This document shows, piece by piece, positions 7,501-35,427 of a stretch of 64,000 nt of DNA; the stretch's first letter is position 1; every line of letters starts with the position of its first letter. The position numbers and the translations under genes were made by a program. Location of the stretch: NCBI GenBank assembly GCA_973895155.1, contig OZ316896.1, positions 22,339,722 to 22,403,721 on the forward strand, given 5' to 3'. The stretch is from Marsupella aquatica. Taxonomy: Eukaryota; Plantae; Marchantiophyta. Under the pieces are notes generated by a model. That model made no database searches. It was not told the origin of the DNA and saw only the letters and a list, made by a program, of their open reading frames with translations.

Positions 7501-8358
7501 GTCACCAGCTCAAAGTTCTGGGAATTGTGTTTTCGTCAGCTGCGAGGAGTCGTCGGCGCTTCAGGGAGTTCTCCGATTCGTATGGTGAGCACGTGAGCTC
7601 TTCGGCTGATGATGAGAGAGCAGGATTCGGGAATTTATTAGCTCGAGACGTTTCATTCATTCCCGGTGGTGGTGGCGGCTGGACCGCTGGAAGCGCGCTG
7701 CAGAATGGTACTCTGACGGCTTGTCGTGAGTCTGGAATTCTGGATGGAAGCTTTTTGACATGCTGGCGAAAAAATTTCGGTTTAGATAACGGGACTGGCT
7801 TCTTGACAATCATGACAGGAGATTGGCGAGGTGTGAAAGAATGATTGCCCTCTGCTTTCGTAGAAGGAGCAAACCAAACAGTACGCCCTTACGCAGAAAG
7901 ACGCAGACGAGAGGAGACTAGCGTTACCGTAGGCAGAGGACAGGAGAGAAGGGGAGCACATTATTATTATTAGTTTGATGGCCAAACGAAGTTGGGGTAC
8001 TTTCTTCCCTAATTTCCTGTGGCGCCACTTGTCCTCGAGCATTTAAAACGAACCGTTTGAAAGAGAGCGAGAGAGAGAAGTGTTCTCAAAATATGGGCAA
8101 GTGATCGTTTGTGACAACTTGCTGAAGGAGAAAGAAGCAAGCGAAGTGAAGTGAAAGTGAGGTGAAGTCGAGCGACGTCTGGCGGAAGTAGGTTAAGCTT
8201 GTGTTTGATTTTGAACCCGAAATTTGAGATAGGAGGTAAATCACTCAACATAGTTCGCGTATCATACCGCATTGTGTGATAGGCACCACATTTTGGTCGG
8301 ACATGTGCGTGAATTCTATAGAAAGTCAAGAGGGAGGAGAACATTTCGTGAAGGCAGG

Positions 8359-10704
8359 ATGGACGACGGGCTTTTCGAACAATTGTTGAACAATTTCTAT
8401 CGGCAAGGACTCAATGCCGAGAATGGGCAACCACGTCCTTCTGAAAGGAATTCTGGGCGCTCAACGCGAGTGAAAAAATCAGGACTAGATAGAGACACTT
8501 GTGTTCAAGCCCATGATGCCTTCCGAGCGCTGTATGCGTTGCAGGTGAGCTCCCTCCCTTTCAGTATGACGACATCATTTGTGCAGGAGTCTCCGACCGC
8601 ATCAGCTCCGCTCGCAAGCTTGAAGCCCATAACGCTACAACAGCTCATTGTCGGCAAGCGGCATTTTGGAAGAGTTTTGCACGGGCGCCTTTGTGTCAAG
8701 CCCTTCCGGGTGTCGGCCATCGTATCTGTCCTTGAGGACGAAGCGGGGAATGGTGTTCGACTCACTATGTACAACGTCTTATCAGCAGCGGCATCTCTCC
8801 AAGAAATTGAGGCTCGTTTCCCTTTGGGCATGAGAGTGATCGTCAAGGAGCCGTTCTTCAAATTAGCTGCAGATGGAAAGACTGCAATTCGGGTGGACAA
8901 TCCAGCAGATATTGCTATCGACGAAACTTGGAAGAAGGATATCTCTCCGCGTGAGTCGTGCGATAATGCCACTCTCTTGGCAGAACTCGAGGTGATTCGC
9001 TCTGAAGGGAATGAGCTGTTTGGTGCACAAAATTGGATCGGAGCTGTGAACAAGTATTCGGAGTGCATCGATAAAGCTATCGGTATAAGCGGAACGCAGA
9101 ACAACAAGACGATGCCGGACCAGTTCAATCGGGTTGTTATGTTGGCGTACTCCAATAGGGCGGAAGCCAGGTTGCGGCTCGGACGTTACGAAGATGCTCT
9201 GAGTGATGCCGACAAGGCCCTCGAATTTGATCAAAAGCATATCAAGACACTAGTCCGCAAAGGGAAGGCTGCTTACGGTCTCGGATTGTTTGAGAAGAGC
9301 TGCGCGATGTTTAAAGTAGCTCTGGAGCAATCTCCGAATGAGGTCTCCGTATTGGACAATCTCAAAGCTAGTAAGATTGCCCTTGAGCAGTCTCGGACCG
9401 GTGGATACGACTTATCGAATTATTACTCCAGGAAGTGCACTGATGATGTCCCAGCCTGCGCTGATTTCGTTGGACCAGTGGAAATCGGTCGAGTACATCG
9501 TGGCTACGGGCGACGGGGCCTCTTTGCCACGAAGAAAGTCGAACCAGGCCAACTCCTTCTCGTGAGCAATCCACTGGCCATCCGGCGGTGTAACGAGGAG
9601 TTGTTGAAAGTAAACCTCAGCTTTCACTTCCAGAGAAGAGGCGGCCACAACGGTGGTATTAACACTGGCGTTCAAGTTGATCTTCTGGCTGAGCTCGCAG
9701 ACCAGGTCATGAAGTCGAAGCGCAAGATGGCTCAGCTGCACAGTCTCTCAAGCTACGGAAAGCTCGAGATGGAAATCCCTTCCATGGAATTGTTTAGACC
9801 TGGGAGCGAGTGGGTTCCACCTGGCTCCGAAAAGATGGAGGTTGACATGGCCCTCATTCGTGCAGTTGCAAAATTGAATGCATTCGGAAACACTCCCGGC
9901 AACTTCCACGAGCTCATCGATCGGGCAGCCCAGAAGGATACCCCAGTCAAAGATGTCTGGTCCGGGATATGGGCTCTTCCTTCGTTTGCGAACCACTCTT
10001 GTGCTCCGAATTGCATGCTTACCTTCGTTGGAGATGCCATGTTCATCCGCGCGGCTGTACACATTGTCGAGGGTGAGGAGTTAACCGTCCCATACTTGGG
10101 TGGCCTCTTTGAAGATGTGGAAAGTCGTCAAGCCCGCTGCAAGACCTGGTTTTTCACCTGTAAATGTGAGCGATGCCAATTGGAGGAAACCCTGAAGCCG
10201 CAGCTGGCCAAGATCTGCAAGGCCATCCCCAATCTCGTGAAGGCAGCAGAAGCCGAAAGTCATGCAGAGGGCCAGCAGAAGCGTCAGGCGGCTAAAGAAC
10301 TCGCCAAAGTTGCAGATGAAATTGAAGCACTGATTCAGTCGCGTGATACCAAGCTTGGCCCCAGACAGCAAGGTTGGATTCGAGGGGCGTTCATCGCTGC
10401 GTACTTTGCAAAGTTTAGATTGGCAGTGGACGAATACGACTCTCAGTCTAGAATTACGACTCTCAAAGTGATTGTGGATTCGATGGCTTCTGTCTGTGTA
10501 ACGGATATAGTTTTAAAGCTTGCTGGCATACTGCTTCGAGAAGTCGAGCAAAGGTATTTCAAGCATAGTCAGTCTTACCGGCTGACCCTGGATCGAGTGC
10601 TGGGCATCTACAGAGTCGTGTTTGGCAAGCAGCCCAACAGCCTCCTTCACAAGCTCATCAGAGCTCGCTGGGAGCCACTCGGTCCTGAAGACTTTTACAG
10701 ATGA
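8359..10704 (+). CDS. Intronless TPR + SET-domain (SMYD-like) lysine methyltransferase with a fungal-type N-terminal domain
   Basis: First ATG at 8359 (MDDGLFEQ). TPR repeats (RSEGNELFGAQNW..AVNKYSECI; AYSNRAEARLRLGRYEDALSDADKAL; KTLVRKGKAAYGLG). SET motifs GRRGLFATKKVEPGQLL, ANHSCAPN, GEELTVPY. Post-SET FTCKCERC. Confidence 0.9.
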   Translation: MDDGLFEQLLNNFYRQGLNAENGQPRPSERNSGRSTRVKKSGLDRDTCVQAHDAFRALYALQVSSLPFSMTTSFVQESPTASAPLASLKPITLQQLIVGKRHFGRVLHGRLCVKPFRVSAIVSVLEDEAGNGVRLTMYNVLSAAASLQEIEARFPLGMRVIVKEPFFKLAADGKTAIRVDNPADIAIDETWKKDISPRESCDNATLLAELEVIRSEGNELFGAQNWIGAVNKYSECIDKAIGISGTQNNKTMPDQFNRVVMLAYSNRAEARLRLGRYEDALSDADKALEFDQKHIKTLVRKGKAAYGLGLFEKSCAMFKVALEQSPNEVSVLDNLKASKIALEQSRTGGYDLSNYYSRKCTDDVPACADFVGPVEIGRVHRGYGRRGLFATKKVEPGQLLLVSNPLAIRRCNEELLKVNLSFHFQRRGGHNGGINTGVQVDLLAELADQVMKSKRKMAQLHSLSSYGKLEMEIPSMELFRPGSEWVPPGSEKMEVDMALIRAVAKLNAFGNTPGNFHELIDRAAQKDTPVKDVWSGIWALPSFANHSCAPNCMLTFVGDAMFIRAAVHIVEGEELTVPYLGGLFEDVESRQARCKTWFFTCKCERCQLEETLKPQLAKICKAIPNLVKAAEAESHAEGQQKRQAAKELAKVADEIEALIQSRDTKLGPRQQGWIRGAFIAAYFAKFRLAVDEYDSQSRITTLKVIVDSMASVCVTDIVLKLAGILLREVEQRYFKHSQSYRLTLDRVLGIYRVVFGKQPNSLLHKLIRARWEPLGPEDFYR

Positions 10705-12813: not shown

Positions 12814-15800
12814 TCATGGTCCAGTAGAATTGAAGAAATTAAAAACTTGTCTTAAGCTACCTCTGCTTGGCCGGGCATCACTATTGAAAGATGACAAATA
12901 AACTAGACGTTCCCTAACATCAGACTTTGTGATCACTTTGTCAGTCATCAAGGTATCTTCCAATTGCCCTGCAGCAAGCCAATAAAACACAATTTCGATG
13001 TTCAGCTTTCCCCCGTGAGTACATGTTCACATGCTTCTACCTAAGACGAAAACCATGAATTCTGACTCGGTGCATGTGCAATGCCTCGCCAAAGGGACTA
13101 GAAAAAAAAAACAATGCATGGCTTCGACACAGAAGACAACAAGTGGATAACTGAATGAATACTTGAAACATGAGAAGGCACTAACCATGAGGATCGAAGC
13201 AGGACAGAAGAACACCTAGACAGACACAAACACTAATATCCTCTCCTGCATTATAAAGGAGCAAGCCAGATTTAGTACTAGCTGAAAGAAGAAATCAAAC
13301 AACCTATCTTCTCCCAAAAGAAAGCATTGTCCTGCCACAGCATGTAGTGTTTCACCTCAATAGCCCATACGTTTTTGACGACTACCACCATCCCTTATAG
13401 CTCCAAACTTGCAAAGTGAAGGAAAAACAGATCTACACAAATATTCTTACGAAGTGGTGGCGGACCAGAAATGTACCAGTTGAACAGCAAATGAAGACAG
13501 TTGATCCGCTTATCAATTTTTGCCTGGCAAATGCTACAGCCTTTGGCAGATGATTTTGCACAGAATGGCGGTCAATTTTAGAGGCCTGCAGAACCTCACC
13601 CAACATCCTTACAATGAGAAATTCACTCCGGAGGGCAAAACGATGACAGAAAAACTCACTGAATGCCACATATCCACCTAACGGAGGCTCCGTTGTAAGC
13701 GAATGATTATTGCATCACAGTCAACAAACAAAGGACCAATAACAACTTATCTGTCTAGCTTACCACAATTGGCAAATAGAGAGATGACTCAGTTTGACTG
13801 CTTGAACTCAAACTCGATGATGTGCCACAATTGATGATACAGTCAACGACTTCATGTATAGAATCCCTGTTCACTGTATGAACGCAGAAACACTTTCCAT
13901 CTTATTGACAGAGTTGAATTGAAGGAAAATGGAATCGCTAATGAACTCCTGGAAACGAAATCTCATGGCCTGAACACCGGGACAAAAAGAAAACGACTTA
14001 CCGCAATCAGCATTGCCTACGGCAAGCCCAGTGTTACCAATCCAGTGAACACCACGCATATTATCCCGACGTGTTGACTTAATAACAGGATCTCCAGTAT
14101 CCTCAAGTCCACCCTCATTCACCTTGATTTGCAAGCTCGGAATACTCTCTGATGGCGTTACTTTTCTGTCCCCGTTACAGAAAGACTTAATGGCCAAACC
14201 GGGGTTGTCGTGGATTTCACGTTCATCGCTGACAAAAGATGAAGAGACCGCCTCTCCAATTTCTACTTTTTGGGGAACTGCTTTAGCCCGCACTTGAGGT
14301 GCATAATGCCCTCTGACAGCTTTATACACCCGATCTTTTTCTACTATATCAGCAACTTTCCCATTGCAAGTACTAGGGCCACCGCTTATAATTTCTAATG
14401 AGTTCCTCCAGAAATGGTCGGGAGTCAAGCCTCTTGCCCAGCTTTCTTCGTCATCAGCAGCCCCAGGTATATAGCTCCAACTAAACTCTGCGTCAGTGAA
14501 CCGTTCGGTGAACGCTGACGGCCTAGATGCAGAAACAAGAATGATTGGAGTGAAATCCCAATCTTCCAGGTCTGGAACTTCATTCAACCATATTACCGTC
14601 TTTTGCGATACCCACAAAGGCCTCAGGGGCTTCTTCAGCACTTTCGCCAGAGCAGCTAAGTCAGCACCTGTTGATTTTAAGGATTCAACCCAGCCGTCAA
14701 TCCGGCTCTCTATGTTGGCCTTTTCCACTTTTGAGACCCATAAGGGTAGATGGAGAGTACAATCCCAATCTTCGCTGAATGCTGTTTCCTTTTGCAGGTC
14801 TTCACGAGAGATGAAATCCTCAGTTTCTTTCGCAGTCTCTCTCTTAGAAGATAGTGAAGTTTCCTCCCGCGTGCGAGGGCGAAAGTCAGCAAGGGCTCGA
14901 TTCAACACACAGGCCCAAATTGGAATGGTCTTGGACATACTGTCAGGAAAACGCTTGCCTTTCCGTGTGGCATCAACAATACAGCAACCCCCTCTTTCAG
15001 CTGCACTCATCCATGCACTGTACCAGACCCATCAACCTCTAGCTATAAAAATAAATGACAGCTATGGACCCCTCAAGTTCACATAAGGTAGTCTCGTCAC
15101 TTACCTTGGACATCAGAACGACAAGAATGTTGCCCACCGTTTGAAAACGCTATCAACAACAGCATCCCTAATAAACATCAGAATGTGTAATACTTTTGCC
15201 CTCAGCGATGACTTCTCTTTAGGAAAACAGCATCCCTAATGGACGTTACCATGGTTATTTTTGCATACAGTTATGACTTGCTCTCTCATCAGAAACGACA
15301 TCCCCGTTGAACGTCAGTAGGTTATAATTTTGCCTACAGTGATGACTTCCTCAAATGAAACACAAACTCCTGATTAGACATCACACTGGTTATAATTCCC
15401 TTACAGGTATGGATTGCTATCATCAAAAGCAACTTCCGTATGATGCACAGCACTTCGGCTATACGATTAAAGCTCTATAGGCATTTGTAGTTTGCTCTAT
15501 AGCCAACAGAGATGCATTTGGATTCGGAAGTGTCAGAACACTGATGGTAAGTGTTGAGAAATCACTGCAAATAGGGAAGACGGAGAGAGACGGAGAATGA
15601 ACCTGCAAGAGTGGCGACGTGCATATTCAGGCGGATGGTGCTAAAAGACCAGTTCCCATTGTGACCGTCCGTGGACTTGAAATAACAAGTCCCATCAAAT
15701 TCGGGAGCATACCACAACCCGCATCGGAGGTTTGCGAGCAGAGGCACATCCCTCCATAGATGCTGTATCTCCAGCACGAACAGAGAGTCCTCGTAGATGG

Positions 15801-21805: not shown

Positions 21806-22727
21806 AGCGACGGAGTAAAAGGGAAAAGATCCCAAATTGTGGGCCCTCACATGATTCAGGCGAATCAGGCTTGATAGTAAAGCAAAGACTATGTCTCAGT
21901 CCGTAACATAGAGATCTCAGTCTCTCGGCGACATTTGCTACTTAGGGAAACGTTCAATCTGGAAGTTGAAGTGCCTTTACAAACGTTATCCTCTAAAACT
22001 AATTCCACGCGAATCGAAAGTAGCATCAAATCTTTGCGTCTATCCAGCTACATTCTCTGAAGAAACAGTACAGGTCATGGTTGTCCGATAGACGATTCGC
22101 CAAAGGACGAACGCGAAAACTGTAATCCAGTAATGCACTTGTAATCCTCGATAGGATTTGACCGTCTATAGACTAATTCGTCCTTTATAAATTCAAGGAA
22201 CTCAAAGAAACCGTTGCCTAGAAACGAGAGGAGTTACTATATTCTTTCCATCTCTTAAGAAAAACTGTCAACAATAATTATCTGAACAGTTTTTTTGATA
22301 ATAATTGTTGACAAGCCTTTTTGTCAGATAATAATTGTTGATAAATCTTCTTCTAGCCTCTTCTTCCAGCGTCAAGGGCGATTCCCTACCTGCGGGGACC
22401 ACTTTGTATTTCTTAATTACCTTTGAATGTTGAATAAGAAATGAAGGCCTTGGTCATTCTGTGTGTTGGTGCTCTTGCCTTGGTTCTCTAGCCTAGCCGA
22501 GATCGGCCCCAGTGTGTTACTTAAAGTAGCATCGTGTGGCGCTTGACGGGGTCCCCGGCTCCTACTGCGCTTGTGTGCGCTCAATTTTTTCGTCGGATTC
22601 CATAGAGCGTAGATAAGAGGCGAACCGAGCTTCGCTGGATGTACGGTGAGAAGAATTCACGGAGAGAAACAGACCTCTGAAGCTAGTACAGGACAGAGAA
22701 ATCAGTGAGCTGCAAAGTCCTCAGGTG

Positions 22728-23939
22728 ATGGAGCGGATTCAGGCAGTCGTTGTGGGGCTCGCACTACTCACAATCGGATTGGGAATTTGGATCGGACAGC
22801 CTGATTACATTTTTGGTAACTCTGCACAACACCAACATGCGAAGGACGACGGGGGCCGCTGCTTTCCAGCTCTCTTCAGCTTTGGGAGCTCAGTAGCTGA
22901 TAGCGGCATGATGAGGACCGCGTTTCCAGCTGGAGAACAGGGGAAAGTTCTGTACGGCTCAACGTTCTTCGGCAAGCATTCCAAGCGCTACACCGATGGC
23001 CGCCTGCACATAGATTACTGGGCAACGGCATTGAAGATACCATTTCTGGACCCTTACTTCAAAAGTGTGGGCTCAAATTTTCGAAGAGGGGTGAATTTTG
23101 CAGCGGCGGGAGCAACTGCTCGCAACGTTACTCCGTTTTCTCCGTTCTATGTTTCCATCCAGCTCAATCAGTTTCGTGAATTCAAGCGGGATGTGCTCGC
23201 CATCCTCGAAGGTGGACCCACTGCAACAAAGTGTGATGTTGAGAAGCTTCCCCGAAAAGAGTACTTTGAAGATGGTCTCTACATGCTAGCAATTGGCAGC
23301 AACGACATTGGCGATTTTATCTTACGTCAGGGCGTGTCCTTCGAAGATGCTCCATCTAGAATTCGAGACATTTCGGATGAAATTGCTCGGGTGGTGGAGG
23401 CACTTTATGTCGAAGGAGCACGGTATATATTGCTAGACGATGTGTTTCCTATAGGATGTTCCTCTACCGTTATGACAGCATTTGCAGGAAAATTCCCTGA
23501 TCAGCTAGATGATGCTGGATGCTTGAAACCCATTAATGATATTGTGCAACTTCACAATGCCTTGCTCAAGAAGCGTATAGCGGAGCTTGCGAAGCGGCTT
23601 CCAGGTGCTTCAATCGCAGTTGTTGACACGTACAGCAGACGATATGAGATCATTGCCAACCACGATCAGTATGGGTTTAAGGAGCCACACAAGGCATGCT
23701 GTGGAACAGGAGGACCTTACAACTTCAGACCTGATTTGCTTTGCGGCCGTAGCAAAATGGAAAACGGAGTGCTGGTCACAGCAGGCATGTGTGACAATGC
23801 TTCTAGTCATGTTTGGTGGGATGGGGCTCACTACACGGATGCCTTCAACCATGCCACCATGAAGGCGATCTTGAAGGGAGATCATTTCGAGCCCAGTTTT
23901 GATCTCTTTCGCAATGGTTGTGAGCTTGGGGAGATTTAA
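22728..23939 (+). CDS. GDSL/SGNH esterase-lipase, intronless, with N-terminal signal or anchor
   Basis: Block I FSFGSSVADSG, RYTDGRLHIDYWA, GVNFAAAGA, block III IGSNDI, ACCGTGG, block V WWDGAHYT (DxxH). Confidence 0.93.
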   Translation: MERIQAVVVGLALLTIGLGIWIGQPDYIFGNSAQHQHAKDDGGRCFPALFSFGSSVADSGMMRTAFPAGEQGKVLYGSTFFGKHSKRYTDGRLHIDYWATALKIPFLDPYFKSVGSNFRRGVNFAAAGATARNVTPFSPFYVSIQLNQFREFKRDVLAILEGGPTATKCDVEKLPRKEYFEDGLYMLAIGSNDIGDFILRQGVSFEDAPSRIRDISDEIARVVEALYVEGARYILLDDVFPIGCSSTVMTAFAGKFPDQLDDAGCLKPINDIVQLHNALLKKRIAELAKRLPGASIAVVDTYSRRYEIIANHDQYGFKEPHKACCGTGGPYNFRPDLLCGRSKMENGVLVTAGMCDNASSHVWWDGAHYTDAFNHATMKAILKGDHFEPSFDLFRNGCELGEI

Positions 23940-24715
23940 TACACTGATATCATCTGACTCTGGACTATTTTCTCTGTAAGCTTGTACTTGTACTTTGTTT
24001 GGGGTTTTTGAAGAAAGCTGATCCATATTTGCCTCTCGACTATCTAAGCTGTCACCAGCCAAAAAGCCAGTGGGTTCAGTTGACGTTTTGCGTCATATAT
24101 AGACAAGTGGACCAGATCTTGACTTATCCATCTGTTTCCAGAGTCACGGGCGATTTTCCCCACATTCTGGGCGGTTTTACTATGTCTTCATCGCTTTTTA
24201 TGCCTAGTTGCTTGAAAGAATCAATAAACGTATCGTAGTAAGAATATAATGGTGTTGGGAACCTGATTGTTTTCTACCATTGTTTGTGGGCAGATCTTCT
24301 CTGCCTGTATGTCACTTAAAAGGCGGTATCTCACTGAGGAGAGCTTGTCCCCTGGTCCTGTTGAGCTTGTGTGGCCCATACAGTTCTGGTCGGACTACTT
24401 GTATCGAATTTGAGAAAAAAACATTCTAGGATCCAAAAGGAACCCGGCCAGCTTTCGCGGATTTCAAAAGGATGTCTCCTTAATGGACCATGTTATGTGT
24501 TTGCACGCCTTTCCTTGCTACGTTACCATGCTATGGCAGTTTGAGTCTCTGTTGTTTGTGGGCATTTGAGGTCCTGTCCTTTGTAAGCTTGGGTATATAC
24601 TTTATAGTTTTTAGCTTTTGGGGGAAGGGAAAAGCCCTTCCTATCAGATTGCTTGAAAGATCGAGGACTGGTAACTCTTTACAATTGAGATCTGCCACCA
24701 TACTTTTGGGTCGGA

Positions 24716-25255
24716 TTTCAATGTAAAGCTAAACATGTGGCAGCTAGCTTGATACTGTAGCTTGTTCGTGGCTGGCCAGGACCTCCTCGCTAAAGATCTT
24801 TTCCCTTCATAGCAGTATTCTACACGAGGGAATTGAGCTCACGTGACTCTCATATTCAAGGATCATATGGTTCGAAAGAGTACGTCTGAACTTACCAATT
24901 TTGGCCACAATAGAACGAGAAATTGTTGTTGACTATTTTTAACTTTCCATAGTAGTCGATACTTGAAGCGATTGGCATTCACTAGCCAGCTTTTTCTAAG
25001 ATTTTAGTTCTGACTCCAGGAGCCACTCCAAAGTTTCAAACAAGCCCTTGGTCACATCCTGACACCAATCCCAGTTCTCTTGAGTATTCCATCCTCATCC
25101 GTCAAATGTGGTGCAAAACTAACTTCTGCTGGAGAGATTGGTGGTGATACGTACCGACTAAACAAGAGAGAGCTTACGTTCCAGGAGCTCGAGAAGAAAC
25201 AACAGATCAGGGTAATGAAACCTGACAAACACTCCAAACCCAGCAATCGTTTTTC
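24716..25255 (+). repeat. Left arm of a ~530-bp long inverted repeat
   Basis: Reverse complement of 34679-35203. ORF 25052-25246(-) and the 3' part of ORF 34556-34882(+) translate almost identically. Confidence 0.92.
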
Positions 25256-25267
25256 TGCTGCATGTCA

Positions 25268-25577
25268 TGTTGGAGATCAGGATAAAACAGATCTATATTA
25301 CCCTTCATCTTTCCCTTAGATCTCGCTGACCTCTTGATTAAATTAGCCAGCGACTTACCGTTGGCATTAGCTCCTGTTGATTAGCCAACGACTTACCGTT
25401 AGCATTGGTACTGCGGCAAGGGCCGCTGGTCCTTGTCCTCCCTTCAGCTACCTCACTTATGGTGTCCCCTAAGATTACGGGCTCACCTAATTTATCGCTC
25501 AACTAGCGTAATCTCCTTGTGTATATTACTCTTCCCTTTTGGGAACTTTATTCAAGCTTTCTATTGAAACTTCCACA
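25268..25577 (+). repeat. 5' LTR (310 bp)
   Basis: TGTTGGAG...CTTCCACA; about 7 substitutions relative to the 3' LTR by eye. Confidence 0.96.
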
Positions 25578-25590
25578 TGGTATCAGAGCC
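25578..25590 (+). promoter_or_regulatory. Primer-binding site for initiator tRNA-Met
   Basis: TGGTATCAGAGCC immediately after the 5' LTR. Confidence 0.95.
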
Positions 25591-25629
25591 ACTAAAATCT
25601 CTGAAGTCTTGCTGATCTAGTTAGTCACC

Positions 25630-28600
25630 ATGTCGTCTTCAGATACTACGAAGATCTCCTTCTCAGATAGTGATAGACTCGTAGGAGCCCTGAATTACAT
25701 TATCTGGGCATTCCATGTCGAGCAAATACTCAGAGAGAAAGGATTGTGGTACATCGTCGATCCCCTTACCCCACTCAGCAGTAGTGGCAGCAGCGGACCA
25801 TTGCTACAGTGGCAGTGTCTCCTGCTCAATCTGGATCAACGACTGCTGGAAGCACTGGCGCTAGCAGTGGAGCTGCTACTGGAGCCGCTACTGGAGCCGC
25901 CACTAGAGCCACAGTCACCGCTACTCAAGCAGACATTCAGAGGGATAGAGAAAGGGTAATTATCATTTTTACCAAGACTATTTCTACGTCTATATTTCCG
26001 ATCATCTATAAGCTTCGTACTGATCCTGCCAAACTTTGGGTCACGTTAAAGAAGAAATTTGAGTTGACTGCTATCCAGCACAAGCTGGACCTCAAGACCT
26101 CTCTTATTGAGCTCCGCATGCACGAAGGCACACCAATCGAGGACTATCTTAAGCGTGTCAATCATCAGGTAATGGAGCTCGCGTCTATAGGGGAAGAGAT
26201 TCCTGATAAGGAACTCATCCAAATGGTGCTACGTAACCTTCCTGACAATTGGGCTGCGTTTAAGTTAGTCTATGGAGTAATGTACTCCAAGGATACACAG
26301 GCTACCTTTGCAGATCTTGAAGAATATCTGCAAGCAGAGGACTTCCGCCGTAAGCCCCGTGGGGAGAGCTTAGAGCACTCCTTACCGGCAACTCCAACTG
26401 AGCAGAGGCGTGACTTCAACAGAGGTCAAGGCCGTGGACGTGGCAGAACGAATAGGTGGACTCCAAGGCGTGATACTGCAAGGGCAGTTCCCAAAAAACG
26501 AGAGTGTAGCGCGCTGCAACTACTGCGGCAAGAGAGGCCATTGGGAGCCGGATTGCTTTGAGATGAACGCACACTCAGAGATGAAGTCTATGTCAGTTGC
26601 TCAGATGCGAGAATTAACCCACAGCATTCAGAGCATCAAAGGTACTGGCTCCAAATCCTATCTCGTTGTTCACGGTGACATTGGAGACAGCGACTCTGAG
26701 AAGAACGGCAGCGGCAGTGAAGGCCAAGCATCCGCTCTCACTATTGAGGCAATGCTTAGCAAGGTTGACATCCAAGGTACCACTAGTCAAAACTGGATCA
26801 TTGACAGGGGAGCCTCGACACACATTAGTCGCAATAAGGCTAGCTTTGGTGCACTAAGTAGTACCCCGTCCACGTCTGGTGTACTGAGCGCGAGTGGATC
26901 CAAGATGCCAATCCTTGGGTCTGGATGTATTCCCCTTTCACGCAATAAATCGATCACCGATGTTTTGTATGTGCCGAGTATCACTAGAAATCTTCTCTCA
27001 GTCGAAAAACTCACTGACCAGGGTCACTCATTTTTTTTCAATTCCTCAAACTGTTATGTATTAAATAGTCAACGACCATTCAAAGTCTGTCTTAAGGGCA
27101 CTCGCGACCCTGCAGCAAGCTCTACAACATTTGTCTACCTGATGTGGCCCTCAACGATGAGCATACTATACCAGTCAACAACAAGACCCAGCTTCACTCT
27201 ATTGTTCTATCTCAGTGCCACCTTGCTGAACCTCGACTCTCGACTCATCAACTCTGGCATCAACGCTTGGGCCACTCCAGCTCACAGCGCCTTGTTCACA
27301 TGACCCGGAATGAGCTCATCACGAGGGCTCCATGCTCTCCACCGATCAACACATTTGCGAGACATGTGTACAAGGCAAGCAGACCAGGAGTCGAATTCCG
27401 AAGGCAGCTACGACTCGGGCAACAAGGCCACTTGAACTCGTGCACTTTGGTCTTTGCGGACCACTACCTACAAAATCACTCACCGGAGCCAGGTACATTC
27501 TCTCTTTCACAGAGGACTACTCCAGATATACCTGGACCGTCTATGCCTTGAAGCTCAAAAGAGAAGCCTTAGAAAAATTTAAGATCTTTAAGCAGAGCGC
27601 CGAGGTCACACTTGGCCACAATCTAGCCTGCTTGCGTAGTGATAAAGGAGGAGAGTACATGTCAAACTTATTCCAATCCTTTTGTCATGACCACGGCATA
27701 GCTCGACAGCTCACTGTAGCTAGAACACCTCACCAAAATGGCGTAGCAGAAAGAAAAAATAGGACCCTCCTTGAAATAATTCAAACTCTCTCACTTGGGT
27801 CCAATGCTCCGTCCTATCTTTGGGAGGAAATTCTACGCACAGCTAACCACATCAACAATCGCTGCAGCACCCGGTCCCTTCTTCTATCCACACCATTTGA
27901 ATGCCTCCACTCTATTATACCTGATGTTGGCCACTTTCGCATCATCGGCAGTACAGCTTACGTTCATATCCCAAAAGAGCTTCGGAATAAACTCGGGGCC
28001 AAGTCAATTAAGTGTGGATACGATAACCAGAGCAAAGCCTACAAGTGCTTTGATCCGACAAACCGTCATATTATGATCTCTCGCGACGTCATCATCGACG
28101 AATCCACTCCTGGCAATTTTTCTTCTTCAGCTAGTACTCTCCCACGCGAAAGCCTTTTTGATCTTTGCTCCTTTTTTGATAGTCCTATGGACTCGGGCAG
28201 CACTACCCCTGCCATTGAATCTTTACCATCTCCACTTATGGACCTTAGCGGTCCTCTTGAAACACCCAAAGTTTCTCCTAGCATTTCTCCATCTGAGCCT
28301 GCGTCTACATCTCCTACTGCAACACAACCATCATCTCCACCACCACAGGTTCGCCGTGCTCGCCATTGGCCTCTTGAACGCACTCGACCTCCATCTGGAC
28401 GTGTCACCACTTTGCCATCTAAGTATGATGATTTTCACATGTCACTAACTACAGAGTATGTTGACGCATGCATCACACTCATTGCTGACTCTACCAATGA
28501 CATTCAACTAGGCGCAGCACTATCCGATCCAAGGTGGGTGGCGGCCATGCAACTCGAGCTCCTTGCTCATGAAAAGAATGGCACCTGGGATTTGGTCTCT

Positions 28601-30133
28601 CTTCCCCCGGGGGAGAAAGCACTATCTGCTCGATGGGTACTACGTGAGAAGATCGACCATACTGGCACCCCCAAATTCAAAGCTCGAGTAGTAGCAAGGG
28701 GCAATGAGCAACGTGAAGGTCTGGACTACGACGAAACATTTGCACCAGTGGTCAGATGGTCTACCGTCAGATTAATTGTAGCAATTGCTGCTGCACTCGG
28801 CTGGCCGTTACTGCACATGGATGTGGTAATTGCGTTTCTTAATAGCACTCTCAAAGAGCTTATTTACATGAAGCAACCACCTGGCTTTCTCGCTGCAGGA
28901 CAAGAAACCTTAGTCTATAGACTTTGAAGGTCCATTTATGGACTCAAGCAGAGCCCCAGAACTTGGTACGAGGAACTAGATGTCTATCTTAGATCAATTG
29001 GCTGCATCAGAAGTTCACTGGATCCCAATCTTTATTTTCAACACAACGAAGGCAAGATTGTCATCATAGTACTGTTTGTTGACGATCTACTTATTACTGG
29101 AAGCTGTCAACACAAGATCACAGATCTCAAGCTACAGCTACAATCCAAATACGAGATGAAGGATCTAGGCACAGTGCGACGTTATCTTGGCATCGACTTT
29201 CACCTCGCAAACAAAGGCATTCTCTTGCATCAACAGTTTTATGCCAACCAATTGATACATGAATCAGGAATGGATGATTGCAAACCTGCGTCTACACCTC
29301 TATCGGAAGGTCTAGAAGTATCTGCTGAGACTGGTACTCCTGAATTTGACGTCACTACTTACTGTCAACTCGTAGGCAAACTTATATACCTTACCAATAT
29401 TCGGCCAGATCTTTCTTTCTCTGTGGGATTAGTCAGCCGGTTCATGAGTCAACCACAACAAGCTCATTTCGATGTTGCCATGCACATAGTCCGCTACATC
29501 AAAGGTACCATGGACCTCGGTGTGTTTTATAAGAAAGGCGGATCACTCTCGATCCAAGGATACACTAATGCCGATTGGGGAAACTCATGCCCCGACACTC
29601 GATGGTCCACGGGGGGATATGTTCATAAACTTGCCATGGGGCCCATTGCCTGGAGCTCCAAATGTCAGCCTACTGTCTCTCGCTCCACTACTGAGGCCGA
29701 GTATCGAGCTCTCTCTGACGGCGCTCAGGAAGGTGTCTACCTGAAGCGACTAGTGGAAGAGTTACAACAGCACACTATTGGACCTGTCGATCTAGCAACA
29801 AACAGCCCTGACATTACTCAAGACCTGCTCAAGGCCTCCACTCCTACAACTCAAGACCTCCACATATTCTGCAATAACATGAGTGCTATTAAACTGGCTA
29901 AAAATCCGGTATTTCATGCTCGAACAAAACACCTTGAAATTCATCATCACTTCATAAGAGAGAGAGTATTGGAAGGCGAAGTTTCTATTCAGCATGTCAA
30001 ATCTGAGGACCAAGTAGCCGACATTCTTACCAAAGTACTTCCCAAAATTAAGTTCATCAAAAATCGGGACCAGCTGGGCATGAAATTCCTAACTCAGCTT
30101 AAATCCACTACAGCATCGTGTGTAATACGGTAG
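25630..30133 (+). pseudogene. Copia gag-pol with frameshifts and a premature stop
   Basis: Gag NYIIWAFHVEQIL..GLW; zinc knuckle CNYCGKRGHWEPDC; protease WIIDRGAS; LWHQRLGH; integrase LRSDKGGEY and PHQNGVAERKNR; RT FKARVVARG, YDETFAPV, GLKQSPR, FVDD; RNase H TEAEY, ADILTK. Frameshifts near 25800, 26480, 27110 and 27330; stop at 28925-28927. Confidence 0.95.
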
Positions 30134-30481
30134 GAAAATCGGCTACAAGAACTTTGGGTACTCGTGCTCCATGTTCACTCTCAAACTAGCGACTCGGGGG
30201 TCTCACTATATGGAGACCTCCCCATCACCTGCGACGTTTTTAGGCCCCGGACCCCCTAAAAATGTAAGAAAATATTTTTATTTTTTAACCCCTATAAAGT
30301 TTGGAATATTCCAAAAATTGGATTAAAAAGACCCTAATGTTCTTATAAGTATCAAAATTGAATTAGAAAGACCCTATTGTTCTTCTACAAAAAAATTTAA
30401 GTCTTCCCTTAGAACCAATAAAATGACCCTATCCTTTGTCGCACATGATATGTCAGTTTTGTGGAAGTGAAACCCCCGAGA

Positions 30482-30976
30482 CTAGCGAAGTCTGACACTA
30501 TTACGAACTATGTAAATCTCAGCCTCTTCCCTAGTTCTGAACGACTTGAATTTGTTCCCTCGGAACCCACTAACCAGTGGCTCCACCTCATCCCATGAGG
30601 TGTATATTCCGGGACGCCTACCCCTTGCAACAGCATAGTATCGGCGCGGTAGCTCCACTGAATTATCAGCCTGTAGCTCAGCATATGGCAATCTCATCTC
30701 ACGTCTCACTTCCGCCACATTCGACAGATTCTCAGCACTCCGGTCCTCCTCACGCAGACGACGTTCTTCCAGTACCACTGTTGCAACTGGCCTTTCGTCA
30801 TCTGGAAGCACTAGCCCTGGAGGCTGCGTTGGAGCCTCACCTTTGGACTCTTGTGAATTGCCATGGCGACACAACAGAGAATCATAGCAGAAGCGAGCTA
30901 CAATCAAAATGAAACCCAGCATCACAAGCAGCAAGTCCAGAACGGACTCTCGCAAGGAGACCACCTCTTGCACCAT
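30482..30976 (-). CDS. Retrotransposon-borne antisense ORF (164 aa from ATG): N-terminal hydrophobic helix plus C-terminal RNase H1 N-terminal hybrid-binding / caulimovirus viroplasmin (Cauli_VI) domain
   Basis: VLDLLLVMLGFILIVA is a putative TM helix. YYAVARGRRPGIYTSWDEVEPLVSGFRGNKFKSFRTREEAEIYI fits the HBD consensus (Y/F)YAVxxGRxxG(I/V)(Y/F)xxWxExxxxVxxFxxxxFKxFxTxEEA. Lies between the pol stop (30133) and the PPT. Confidence 0.85.
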   Translation of the reverse strand: MVQEVVSLRESVLDLLLVMLGFILIVARFCYDSLLCRHGNSQESKGEAPTQPPGLVLPDDERPVATVVLEERRLREEDRSAENLSNVAEVRREMRLPYAELQADNSVELPRRYYAVARGRRPGIYTSWDEVEPLVSGFRGNKFKSFRTREEAEIYIVRNSVRLR

Positions 30977-31063
30977 CACTCTGACTTACTTCCACTACCA
31001 TTGTTTTAAACTCCGCTGTAAAACAATATATACTTTCTGTGTGCTAGCTAGCAAGACACGGTC

Positions 31064-31075
31064 AAGGGGGGGGGG
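31064..31075 (+). promoter_or_regulatory. Polypurine tract
   Basis: AAGGGGGGGGGG directly before the 3' LTR. Confidence 0.92.
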
Positions 31076-31385
31076 TGTTGGAGATCAGGATAAAACAAAT
31101 CTATATTACCGTTCATCTTTCCCTTAGATCTCGCTGACTTCTTGATTAAATTAGCCAGCAACTTACCGCTGGCATTAGCTCCTGTTAATTAGCCAACGAC
31201 TTACCGTTAGCATTGGTACTGCGGCAAGGGCCGCTGGTCCTTGTCCTCCCTTCAGCTACCTCACTTATGGTGTCCCCTAAGATTACGGGCTCACCTAATT
31301 TATCGCTCAACTAGCGTAATCTCATTGTGTATATTACTCTTCCCTTTTGGGAACTTTATTCAAGCTTTCTATTGAAACTTCCACA
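31076..31385 (+). repeat. 3' LTR (310 bp)
   Basis: Direct repeat of 25268-25577, followed by the TSD TGTCA. Confidence 0.96.
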
Positions 31386-31501
31386 TGTCATAGATGTCTT
31401 GTTTCCTCTCCTCCCGGTCCGATGCTATCAATTCTTGAGCTCAACCTCGACGAGCTCCTGGCGAAATAGAACCAGATGACCCAGCTGAACTGAAGAGATG
31501 A

Positions 31502-32152: not shown

Positions 32153-32509
32153 ATAAGCATAAACCCAGCACTTGTTTTCACTTAAAACATGAAATTTCTG
32201 ATTTGAGACTTGGAAAGACTGGCAGAGGATTATGAGACTTGGACATTTTCCACACCCAACCTGTATTATATGCAATCCAGCTCTTTCTTTTTGGCATAGT
32301 TTGTTTTCAAAATGTCTGTGGTGGGAAACCTTGCTGGCTGTTGGATTATGGTGTCATTTTTTTTAATCATGAGATGCACCTAAAGGTGCCATTATGCACC
32401 TTTTGTACATCCAACCCATCACTCCCCCCCCCCCGACTTGCACATTCCTTGAAATCCAATTGCCAGGCTGCCTTGCCAACTCTCATCAAGGTCAGACTGC
32501 CTAGCAATC

Positions 32510-33075
32510 TCACTTATGTTTGATTACACTTTCACTCTACATCAATTTCTATTGGCAATACACTTATGTTTGACAACACTTCAGTTCAATATCAATTATT
32601 ATGGACGATATACTTGTGCTCAACATCATTTACTCTTGACAATACATTTATGTTGAGAACACTCCCACTCAACATCAGTTACTATTGACAATACACTTAT
32701 GTTCAACATCAGTTACTATTGACAATATACTTATGTTTGATGACACCTCAGCTCAACATCAGTTACTATGGACAATACACTTATGCTTGAGACCACTTTA
32801 CTATGGACAATACACTTCCACTTCAGCTCAACATCAGTTACTATAAGCAATACAGTTGTGCTCAACATCACTTATTATTGATAATACATTTATGTTCCAC
32901 AGCACTTCAGCTACTATGGACAATACACTTATGCTAAACATCACTTACTATTGACAATACTCTTCTGCTCAACATTGATAATACACTTTTAGCCACTATG
33001 GACAATACACTTATGCTAAACATCACTTACCATTGACAATACATTTATGTTCCACAACACTTCACATCAGTTATC
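32510..33075 (+). repeat. Degenerate tandem array built from GACAATACACTTATG and CTCAACATC(A)GTTACTAT modules
   Basis: More than 10 imperfect copies; the same modules recur at ~34170-34300. Confidence 0.85.
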
Positions 33076-33109
33076 ATGTGGTATAGCCCAATGCCCGTGT
33101 GTTGCACAG

Positions 33110-33800
33110 AAGATGTCGAGGTGAGAAAAAGATGTTGAGATGAGAAAAGAATGTTGAGGTGAGAAAAATATGTTGAGGAGAGAAAAAGATACAACATGAG
33201 AAAAAGACGTTGAGGAGAGAAAAAGGTGCGAGGAGAGAAAAAGATTTTGAGGTGAGAGAAATATATCAAGGTGAGAAAAAGATGTCGAGGACAGAAAAAA
33301 GTTGTTGAGGTGAGAAAAAGAGGTCGAGGAGAGAAAAATATTTTGAGGTGAGAAAAGATGTCAAGCTAAGACAAAGATGTTGAGGAGAGAACAAAATTTG
33401 AGGTGAGGAAAAGATGTTGAGGAAAGAAAAAGATGTGGAGGCAAGGCAAATATATTGATTGAGGTGAGAAAGACAGGGAAAAAGATGTTCAGGCGAGAAA
33501 ACATGTTAAGGCCAAAAAGAGATGTCAAAGGAGGGCAAAGACATTGAGTTAAAAAATGATGTTGAGGCAAGAAAAAATATTGAGGCAAACAAAGATGTTG
33601 AGGCAAGAAAAGATGTCAAGACGCAAAAAAATGTTGAAGCAAGGCAAAGAAGTCAAGGTGAAGCAAGAAACTATAGGCTTTGCAAGGTATACATTGAGGC
33701 ATGTGATGTGTCATTGCAGGCAAGGCAAAATTGTTGAGGTGAGGCAAAGATGTTGAGGTAAGTTTAGACTCATGTTGAAGTGAGGTAAAAATGTTGAGCC
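33110..33800 (+). repeat. Degenerate purine-rich ~19-20 bp tandem array (GATGTTGAGGTGAGAAAAA)
   Basis: More than 20 imperfect copies. Confidence 0.85.
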
Positions 33801-34678: not shown

Positions 34679-35203
34679 GAAAAACGATTGCTGGGTTTGG
34701 AGTGTTTGTCAGGTTTCATTACCCTGATCTGTTGTTTCTTCTCGAGCTGCTGGAACGTAAGCTCTCTCTTGTTTAGTCAGTATCTATCACCACCAATCTC
34801 TCCAGCAGAAGTTAGTTTTGCACCACATTTGACGGATGAGGATGGAACACTCAAGAGAACTGGGATTGGTGTCAGGATGTGACCAAGGGCTTGTTTGAAA
34901 CTTTGGAGTGGCTCCTGGAGTCAGAACTAAAATCTTCAAAACAGCTGGCTAATAAATGCCCAATCGCTTCAAGTAACAATTGTTTTGAGAAATTGAAAGT
35001 AGTCACCAACAATTGTGGCCGAACCGGTAAGTTCAAACGTACTCTTTCGAACCATATCAACCTTGAATATGAGAGTCGCGTGAGCTCAATTCCCTCGTGT
35101 AGAATACTGCTATGAAGGGAGAAGATCTTTAGCGAGGTCCTGGCCAGCCATGAACAAGCTACATTATCAAGCTAGCTGCCACATGTTTAGCATTACATTG
35201 AAA
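34679..35203 (-). repeat. Right arm of the ~530-bp long inverted repeat
   Basis: Reverse complement of 24716-25255. Confidence 0.92.
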
Positions 35204-35427
35204 CCCTAAGTTCAAACGTACTCTCTCGAACCATATCAACCTTGAATATGAGAGTCGCGTGAGCTCAATTCCCTCGTGTAGAATACGCCCTCGTGTATGC
35301 GCCTCCTGCTGGTGCGCCCTCCTGAGTGCGCTGCTAGTGTGCAGCCGAGGAAGAGGACGAAGAGGAAGAGGAAGTCAAAAGTAAAGGGAGCGGTGAAGCT
35401 GGGGAGGATCAATAGTGCAGAAGAATA

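What the first reader, a model, noticed from the sequence alone, without database searches (positions are those of the whole stretch)
30482..30976. Copia retrotransposon carries an antisense gene for a membrane-anchored RNase H1 hybrid-binding (caulimovirus P6-like) protein
Seen: inside a TSD-bounded copia, between the pol stop and the PPT, is an uninterrupted minus-strand ORF. It has a ~17-aa hydrophobic helix, a charged linker and a clear HBD/Cauli_VI motif in the last ~50 aa, but no RNase H catalytic domain. Established: this domain binds RNA:DNA hybrids and dsRNA in eukaryotic RNase H1, and it lies in the miniTAV region of CaMV P6, an inclusion-body protein and RNA-silencing suppressor. 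Extra ORFs 3' of pol are known (sense env-like in SIRE, antisense in Tat/Retand gypsy), but I do not know of a TM+HBD antisense ORF in copia. Inference: it may be an element-encoded accessory factor, such as an anti-silencing dsRNA sequester, a decoy shielding RT intermediates from host RNase H1, or a membrane tether for replication particles. It would be transcribed from an antisense promoter in or near the 3' LTR. Caveat: intactness alone is weak evidence of selection, because gag-pol has only about one disabling lesion per kb.
Basis: partly seen in the sequence, partly recalled or inferred. Interest (0 to 1): 0.85.

Follow-up and report, generated by a model that had tools for sequence, protein, structure and literature searches.

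The report
Copia lineage's membrane-anchored RNA-duplex gripper gene
A lineage of jumping genes, likely of liverworts and mosses, carries an extra backwards-facing gene for a small protein that joins a predicted membrane anchor to the RNA:DNA-gripping domain of RNase H1, which likely holds the element's own double-stranded nucleic acids at a cell membrane.

Summary
Confirmed and extended. A complete but decayed Ty1/copia element (25268-31385) carries a 164-codon antisense ORF between pol and the polypurine tract. It encodes a hydrophobic helix, an acidic linker and a PF01693 hybrid-binding domain (E 1.5e-19), with no nuclease domain. It is not a one-off. Seven further database proteins share helix and domain around a variable linker, one from the liverwort Calypogeia fissa; their contexts are unseen. 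An 80%-identical copy has the same layout. Among 80 metagenomic copia loci, only the one inside this element's RNase H clade (47% identical) carries an antisense hydrophobic-helix-plus-domain ORF. Substitutions are mostly synonymous. The three other copies seen in context are broken in this ORF, two demonstrably also in pol. Most of the gap after pol is a later hAT-type MITE. Expression, membrane insertion and binding are untested. Best reading: an element-encoded accessory factor that tethers and masks duplex RNA or hybrids at a membrane. Ten literature searches found no such ORF in copia. Earlier unchecked scan notes report the same domain with algal and fungal copia in other layouts.

The parts
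25263..25267 (.). Left target-site duplication TGTCA
   Evidence: repeated at 31386-31390
25268..25577 (+). 5' LTR, 310 bp, TG...CA
   Evidence: 7 mismatches to the 3' LTR
25578..25589 (+). Primer-binding site, full tRNA-iMet type
   Evidence: sequence; its match to the 3' end of tRNA-iMet is recalled, not tested
25630..30133 (+). gag-pol in copia order (gag, zinc knuckle, protease, integrase, RT, RNase H), broken by 4 frame changes and 1 stop; the RNase H has a lineage-specific long loop
30185..30192 (.). Left copy of the 8-bp duplication made by the MITE; right copy 30481-30488 holds the ORF's stop codon
30193..30480 (.). Later high-copy MITE, 14-bp terminal inverted repeats (13 of 14 match), 8-bp TSD (hAT-type, by recalled rule); not part of the ancestral element
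   Evidence: contig depth 19,000-63,000 against 11-16 beside it in run X1, and an X4 contig joins across it
30482..30976 (-). Antisense accessory ORF, 164 aa (P0001)
30515..30643 (-). RNase H1 hybrid-binding domain (PF01693), residues 112-154
   Evidence: rmsd 0.6 to 3BSU, predicted model
30653..30868 (-). Acidic, predicted-disordered linker, residues 37-108; 48-72 aa across the family
30887..30943 (-). Hydrophobic core of the family-conserved N-terminal helix, residues 12-30; predicted membrane anchor and/or oligomerisation helix
31027..31032 (-). TATATA 51-56 bases upstream of the ATG; candidate antisense TATA box, unproven
31064..31075 (+). Polypurine tract
31076..31385 (+). 3' LTR, followed by the right TSD 31386-31390

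Best explanation
A lineage of Ty1/copia retrotransposons, likely of bryophytes, carries a conserved antisense gene whose product joins a predicted membrane-anchoring helix to an RNase H1 hybrid-binding domain, and it likely gathers and masks the element's own duplex RNA or RNA:DNA intermediates at a membrane. Shown: the gene, its domains, the same position and orientation in relatives, conservation of both ends around a free linker, and excess synonymous change. Inferred: (1) it is transcribed from an antisense promoter at the 3' end; (2) the helix inserts into an endomembrane and packs against copies of itself through a conserved small-residue face, giving the avidity a single domain lacks; (3) the basic domain on its flexible acidic tether catches base-paired genomic RNA, sense-antisense duplexes or hybrids, concentrating them where particles assemble and hiding them from Dicer-like enzymes. 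That would make it a minimal, membrane-bound analogue of the N-terminal third of caulimovirus P6. My odds: selected accessory gene 0.9; binds duplex nucleic acid 0.7; this tether-and-mask role about 0.4. The window copy is dead as a transposon.
For: Family: P0002/P0010, P0004, P0005, P0011 and P0012 align over 96-99% of the query (P0002, P0004, P0005, P0011, P0012; P0010 is a P0002 cluster member). A profile of the helix alone, built from 6 members, found 2 held-out proteins, P0114 (E 1.5e-10; Calypogeia fissa CAM6101554.1) and P0129 (E 4.6e-8), plus P0002 and P0009 of the training cluster, and nothing else among 167 domain-bearing proteins. For these five relatives, identity to P0001 is 29-44 of 52 in the domain, 7-20 of 31 in the helix and 3-16 of 72 in the linker. 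Context 1: a 1385-bp X2 contig (same length and depth) carries pol RNase H at 80% identity, then the antisense domain 129 bases on (130 in the window without the MITE), then the helix. Context 2: L001, RNase H 47% identical, has a 152-codon antisense reading between the pol stop and the PPT, with a KD 2.9 helix and PF01693. It is the only one of 80 copia loci with the domain and the only locus inside the window's clade (FastTree 0.93, 184 sequences; UFBoot 82 with the shared loop removed, 48 sequences). 58 of the 80 loci had 700 bases or more after pol. Selection: 9 of 15 substitutions to copy B are synonymous (expected fraction 0.33, P 0.03) and 8 of 10 listed in two diverged domain copies (expected 0.24, P 3.5e-4). 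Binding residues: the W43 equivalent is kept in 8 of 9 and the K59 equivalent is K or R in 8 of 9; domain net charge +1 to +5; W43A and KK59/60AA abolish hybrid binding in the human domain, and one domain alone gave only diffuse signal where three in tandem gave foci (PMC10639055, passages). Helix: small residues at positions 18, 21, 24 and 25 in most members; AF2 helix 8-42, pLDDT 94-95 over 11-30. Precedents: Ty1 particle assembly starts at the ER and antisense transcripts trigger silencing (PMC12786077, passages); P6 has an N-terminal self-association region and this domain at 136-182 (PMC5670102, passages).
Against: No expression, localisation or binding data. All three other copies seen in context are broken in the ORF: copy B by two 4-bp insertions and a 16-bp deletion, the X2 contig by a 59-base shortening that is not a multiple of three, L001 by two stops. 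Copy B and L001 are also broken in pol; for the X2 contig that is not known. The contexts of the seven intact database proteins were not seen, and the C. fissa protein is 173 accessions away from the pol relative on the same scaffold. L001's helix does not match the family helix profile better than shuffles (25 of 200 reach it) and its domain does not group with the family in a 45-column tree, so it may be a separate capture. The K60 equivalent is S or A in 9 of 9. P0004 has Glu in mid-helix and KD only 1.09; the flanking-charge rule favours a cytosolic domain in only 5 of 8. The 8-of-10 count uses 10 of 29 differences, from pieces selected at 80% likeness, so it is biased towards conservation. 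The same domain binds the protein TOR in P6.
Confidence: 0.42

Rival explanations
1. The helix is a soluble oligomerisation helix like the P6 leucine zipper, not a membrane anchor; the protein is a multivalent duplex binder acting in cytoplasmic bodies or on nuclear R-loops (silencing suppression or integration guidance).
For: AF2 gives one 35-residue helix, longer than a bilayer span; the uncharged run is only 13 residues in P0001 and 10 in P0004; P6 D1 holds a predicted leucine zipper (PMC5670102); the Grande antisense protein is nuclear (PMC7264820).
Against: KD 1.9-2.5 in 7 of 8 full-length members and uncharged runs of 17-26 residues in P0002, P0005, P0011, P0012; low hydrophobic moment 0.17-0.30; L001 has KD 2.9.
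Confidence: 0.2
2. Self-restriction factor: the protein (or its antisense RNA) limits the element's own copy number by capturing hybrids or genomic RNA away from reverse transcription.
For: Near-identical copies are few, one or two per run; antisense RNAs restrict Ty1 (PMC12786077); the antisense RNA must overlap the genomic RNA.
Against: Low copy number is common without such genes; the window's MITE separates the two convergent ends without a visible cost.
Confidence: 0.12
3. The domain works as a protein-binding module that recruits a host regulator (such as TOR, as in P6) to a membrane.
For: P6 residues 136-182 interact with TOR; ANKLE2 carries a TM helix and a Cauli-VI domain (PMC9380164, one figure legend); K60 is not kept.
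Against: W43, K59, Y29, F53 and a net positive surface are kept; closest solved fold is the RNase H1 domain bound to a hybrid.
Confidence: 0.14
4. A captured host or microbial gene fragment carried along without function for the element.
For: All three other copies seen in context are broken; intactness in the window is expected 58% of the time.
Against: Two separately conserved ends around a variable linker at 32-56% identity, synonymous excess, and the same position in elements 20% (DNA) and 53% (protein) apart.
Confidence: 0.07
5. Decoy that shields reverse-transcription hybrids from host RNase H1, or a trans-acting processivity subunit for the element's own RNase H, docking on the lineage-specific RNase H loop.
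For: The long RNase H loop (31-42 residues against 17-19) marks the same clade as the ORF; in RNase H1 the domain serves the nuclease (10.1101/572842, passages).
Against: Hybrids form inside the particle and a membrane-anchored protein is poorly placed to enter it (inference); no interaction was tested.
Confidence: 0.05

Closest known systems
Antisense additional ORFs between pol and 3' LTR (aORF-3R) of Tat/Retand, Ogre and Athila gypsy elements, e.g. Grande gene23 (PMC7264820, main text read; PMC6317226 supplements 4 and 5 read)
   Same: Same position and orientation; kept across a lineage; function unknown.
   Different: Here the carrier is copia; the ORF is small (141-173 aa in most members) and carries PF01693 and a hydrophobic helix; none of the 12 eORF domains listed in REXdb is PF01693, but that survey used a 250-codon cut-off.
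Hybrid-binding domain of RNase H1 (PF01693; PDB 3BSU, 1QHK)
   Same: Sequence, predicted fold (rmsd 0.6) and most tested contact residues.
   Different: No nuclease domain; K60 replaced by S or A; fused to a hydrophobic helix; encoded by a retrotransposon.
Caulimovirus P6/TAV (PMC5670102, passages)
   Same: Accessory protein of a reverse-transcribing element with this domain and no nuclease; N-terminal helix region, then linker, then the domain; top Foldseek hits among viral models.
   Different: P6 is 520 aa with further RNA-binding and self-association regions; similarity beyond the domain is not shown (rmsd 20-37 for long alignments); P6 is not known to me as membrane-spanning (recalled).
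env-like ORFs of SIRE copia elements (PMC7264820, PMC6317226)
   Same: Extra ORF 3' of pol in a copia, with transmembrane character.
   Different: Those are sense-strand and at least 250 codons in the survey; no PF01693.
Captured nucleic-acid domains in other mobile elements: Pleurotus Helitron capE with PF01693 (PMC4289320, passages); arthropod copia MBD (PMC6673714) and orchid gypsy AlkB (PMC9289625), abstracts in search listings only; bdelloid ORF3s (PMC5408684, abstract)
   Same: A mobile element keeps a host-type nucleic-acid domain.
   Different: Other element classes or domains; capE is in one Helitron copy, not a lineage-wide antisense gene.
ANKLE2/LEM4 (PMC9380164, one figure legend)
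   Same: Transmembrane domain and Cauli-VI domain in one protein.
   Different: Large animal protein with LEM and ankyrin domains, absent here.

Membership tests
Ty1/copia LTR retrotransposon | gag-protease-integrase-RT-RNase H order | tested here: met
Ty1/copia LTR retrotransposon | TG...CA LTRs, 5-bp TSD, PBS and PPT | tested here: met
PF01693 hybrid-binding domain | Score above the Pfam cut-off and RNase H1 N-terminal fold | tested here: met
   70.4 bits against 21; Foldseek 3BSU rmsd 0.6
PF01693 hybrid-binding domain | Contact residues W43, K59, K60 | tested here: inconclusive
   W43 in 8 of 9, K59 basic in 8 of 9, K60 in 0 of 9
PF01693 hybrid-binding domain | Binds RNA:DNA hybrid or dsRNA | not testable with these tools
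   needs a binding assay
RNase H1 enzyme | Catalytic RNase H domain after the hybrid-binding domain | tested here: not met
   the ORF ends 10 residues after the domain; no RNase H match
Caulimovirus P6/TAV | PF01693 domain without nuclease | tested here: met
Caulimovirus P6/TAV | About 520 aa with regions D2-D4, in a caulimovirid genome | tested here: not met
   164 aa inside a copia
Caulimovirus P6/TAV | N-terminal self-associating leucine zipper | tested here: inconclusive
   leucine-rich helix predicted; homology not shown
aORF-3R of Tat/Retand/Ogre/Athila | Antisense ORF between pol and 3' LTR kept across a family | tested here: met
aORF-3R of Tat/Retand/Ogre/Athila | Gypsy carrier and Transposase_28, PMD, DUF390, SMC or Athila ORF1 domains | tested here: not met
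aORF-3R of Tat/Retand/Ogre/Athila | Own antisense transcript | not testable with these tools
   no RNA holder listed
SIRE env-like ORF | Sense orientation 3' of pol | tested here: not met
   minus strand
Bryco copia lineage | Half-tRNA-Met PBS | tested here: not met
   Bryco 100% half-tRNA-Met; this PBS is the full tRNA-iMet type (identification recalled)
Lyco, Ale or Gymco copia lineages | Placement with REXdb reference domains | not testable with these tools
   the REXdb FASTA supplement could not be read; named relatives outside bryophytes are only 31-45% identical
Single-pass membrane protein | Hydrophobic span of about 19 residues with consistent flanking charge | tested here: inconclusive
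   KD 1.9-2.5 in 7 of 8; charge rule 5 of 8; no trained predictor available

The most novel reading that the evidence does not exclude
An undescribed bryophyte copia lineage, spanning elements 47% identical in RNase H, has kept a dedicated third gene: a membrane-anchored, self-associating RNase H1 hybrid-binding protein that builds a membrane-bound replication and anti-silencing platform. It would be a retrotransposon counterpart of the caulimovirus P6 factory, and one of several independent recruitments of this domain by copia elements in algae, fungi and land plants.
Probability: 0.3. Interest if true: 0.88.

Novelty: new variant of a known kind. Interest (0 to 1): 0.72.

Why it matters
The function of antisense accessory ORFs in plant LTR retrotransposons is stated as unknown in PMC7264820, largely because their products resemble little that is characterised. 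This one carries a small, structurally solved domain with published loss-of-binding mutants, so the question becomes directly testable in a liverwort model. It also suggests that copia elements, surveyed as nearly free of antisense ORFs under a 250-codon cut-off, hide small accessory genes, and that reverse-transcribing plant parasites (caulimoviruses and copia) converged on the same duplex-binding domain.

Tried and rejected
No whole genome is held, so no genome-wide copy census. No RNA holder listed: says nothing on expression. Scans with the family alignment found nothing in viral or metagenome contigs; pol queries found nothing useful in viral contigs (one search gave 4 weak hits with no domain) or prokaryote genomes. 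The protein atlas gave no answer. The homodimer prediction gave no verdict and is not used either way. The representative search was dominated by multi-domain repeats; 34 of its 150 hits were scanned and none was a gag or pol fusion. The domain tree (382 domains, 45 columns) makes 9 family members one group (0.986) but cannot name a donor; no host RNase H1 or P6 sequence was in it. Adjacency of the C. fissa protein to pol was tested by accession numbers and not found. P0003 and pol P0168 share a longest-contig length of 2904: suggestive of one contig, not shown. P0006, P0021 and P0014 have a domain and (first two) a hydrophobic helix, but their link to the family is weak (3 and 4 of 200 shuffles reach the score) and their context unknown. 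An out-of-frame ATG 25 bases upstream (31001) was noted and left uninterpreted. Host-gene capture unique to this copy was rejected. Literature searches; none showed this domain in a copia accessory ORF; two searches were swamped and uninformative. The structural paper on the human domain was not held. REXdb supplements 1 and 3, bioRxiv supplements, Repbase and subscription journals were not seen and could hold a prior mention.

Full report
OBSERVATION. The minus strand of 30482-30976 is one 164-codon frame. Residues 112-154 match PF01693 at E 1.5e-19 and nothing else in Pfam matches. The best solved relatives are the hybrid-binding domains of human and yeast RNase H1. An AlphaFold2 model from an 8-sequence alignment gives a helix at 8-42, a low-confidence linker at 40-105 and the domain, which superposes on 3BSU at rmsd 0.6. 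Hydropathy peaks at 2.52 over residues 12-30. The frame lies in a complete copia at 25268-31385: 310-bp LTRs with 7 mismatches, TSD TGTCA, PBS, PPT and the copia domain order. gag-pol has four frame changes and a stop, so this copy is dead, and an intact 495-bp ORF is expected 58% of the time.

A CORRECTION TO THE ANATOMY. Bases 30193-30480 are a later MITE with 14-bp inverted ends and an 8-bp duplication. Contig depth there is 19,000-63,000 against 11-16 beside it in run X1, and an X4 contig joins across it. The ORF's stop lies in the duplicated target, so it predates the MITE. Originally pol and the ORF converged with 52 bases between stops.

A PROTEIN FAMILY. Two word-based searches returned 7 and 21 proteins and the profile search 9509 at E 0.001, of which the best 150 were listed. 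Seven clusters besides the query have helix, linker and domain: P0002/P0010, P0004, P0005, P0011, P0012, P0114, P0129; P0003 and P0077 match without the helix. A profile of the helix alone recovered P0114 and P0129, which were not in its training set, and no unrelated protein among 167. P0114 is CAM6101554.1 of the liverwort Calypogeia fissa; the rest are unnamed. Conservation is high in the domain, moderate in the helix and low in a linker of 48-72 residues. The nearest named pol relatives are also from C. fissa (56% and 48%). An earlier scan note calls this genome a liverwort; I checked that only through these relatives.

THE GENE TRAVELS WITH THE LINEAGE. Laying public contigs on the region showed a 1385-bp X2 contig, recognised in both calls by length and depth, that carries pol at 80% identity, the antisense domain 129 bases further on and then the helix; the window spacing without the MITE is 130. 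A metagenome scan with an RNase H alignment kept the best 80 of 533 confirmed loci. Only L001 carries the domain (E 2e-16; next best 25). It sits on the minus strand in a 152-codon reading between the pol stop (1136-1138) and the PPT (1675), with a KD 2.9 helix. In an RNase H tree of 184 sequences (75 unique ones from the window and loci, 109 of 120 proteins; short or duplicate pieces dropped) L001 is the only locus in the window's 28-member clade (support 0.93). With the shared loop removed, a 48-sequence tree keeps window and L001 together apart from the 12 other loci included (UFBoot 82; two further proteins join). 58 of 80 loci had enough sequence after pol to show such an ORF. This is one positive, so the claim of clade-wide presence is likely, not proven. 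L001's helix and domain could not be tied to the window's family by profile or tree.

SELECTION. Against copy B, 9 of 15 substitutions are synonymous where 33% is expected (P 0.03); in two diverged domain copies, 8 of the 10 listed (of 29 differences) are synonymous where 24% is expected (P 3.5e-4), a count biased by the 80% likeness filter. Against this, the three other copies seen in context are all broken in the ORF. Two are broken in pol too, which fits decay after insertion.

MECHANISM. The domain keeps the W43 and K59 equivalents and a basic surface but not K60. In the human domain W43A and KK59/60AA lose hybrid binding, and one copy gave diffuse signal where three gave foci (PMC10639055, passages). 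A lone domain therefore likely needs avidity. The conserved helix has small residues on one face, as self-packing membrane helices often do (recalled). I infer a membrane-inserted oligomer that presents several domains on acidic tethers. Its likely ligands are base-paired genomic RNA, the sense-antisense duplex that its own transcription must create, or hybrids. Ty1 particles nucleate at the ER and antisense RNA provokes silencing (PMC12786077, passages). A TATATA lies 51-56 bases upstream of the ATG, but no RNA data exist here. Rivals are a soluble P6-like oligomer, self-restriction, a protein-binding role as with P6 and TOR (PMC5670102, passages), a passenger, and an RNase H partner; odds are given in their sections.

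COMPARISON AND NOVELTY. It works like the antisense additional ORFs of Tat/Retand, Ogre and Athila (PMC7264820, main text) but is not a member: copia carrier, different domain. REXdb lists essentially no 3' antisense ORFs in copia (SIRE 1%; the Bianca and Ikeros rows are ambiguous as parsed) and no PF01693 among 12 eORF domains (supplements 5 and 4), but counted only ORFs of 250 codons or more. It shares one domain with P6 (PMC7102451, passages) and is not a P6. PF01693 was reported in one fungal Helitron copy (PMC4289320, passages). Ten searches found no copia accessory ORF with this domain; unread supplements and closed journals may hold one. Unchecked notes of this scan describe the domain ahead of gag in an algal copia polyprotein and beside a fungal copia gag; none matched this protein by sequence. 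They hint at repeated recruitment and are not support.

VERDICT. A real, selected, lineage-associated accessory gene of a likely bryophyte copia group; a new variant of a known kind, with a testable function. Interest 0.72.

Noticed in passing
window 30193-30480: Very high-copy MITE with 14-bp TIRs and an 8-bp TSD inserted between the two convergent stops; an X4 contig shows the empty site.
   Followed up: yes
window 24713-25255 and 34679-35286: Long inverted arms (94-96% complementary) enclose the copia and tandem arrays at about 32490-33800: the copia seems nested in a long-TIR DNA element.
   Followed up: no
window about 29750-29880 (RNase H): The clade has 31-42 residues between two RNase H motifs where other copia have 17-19 (measured in 70 of 184 sequences); a lineage marker of unknown role.
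   Followed up: partly
window 29642-29900: Two catalytic aspartate positions of RNase H read Asn in this copy while relatives keep Asp: a further sign that the copy is dead.
   Followed up: no
window 30482-30976 against copy B: Copy B differs at 2 of 353 bases in the domain half but 13 of 143 in the helix end, which may reflect recombination between subfamilies or contig collapse.
   Followed up: no
window 22650-23939: Intronless GDSL lipase frame just upstream of the nest.
   Followed up: no
window 8254-10701, 13874-15031, 56273-56953: Host genes: TPR plus SET domain protein, Rit1-like, RRP5-like. Long frames at 147-1328 and 1428-2540 match no Pfam family.
   Followed up: no
proteins P0066, P0101, P0049: Hybrid-binding domains fused to a PIF1 helicase (two proteins, one with G-patch) and to MoaE among the representative hits.
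   Followed up: no
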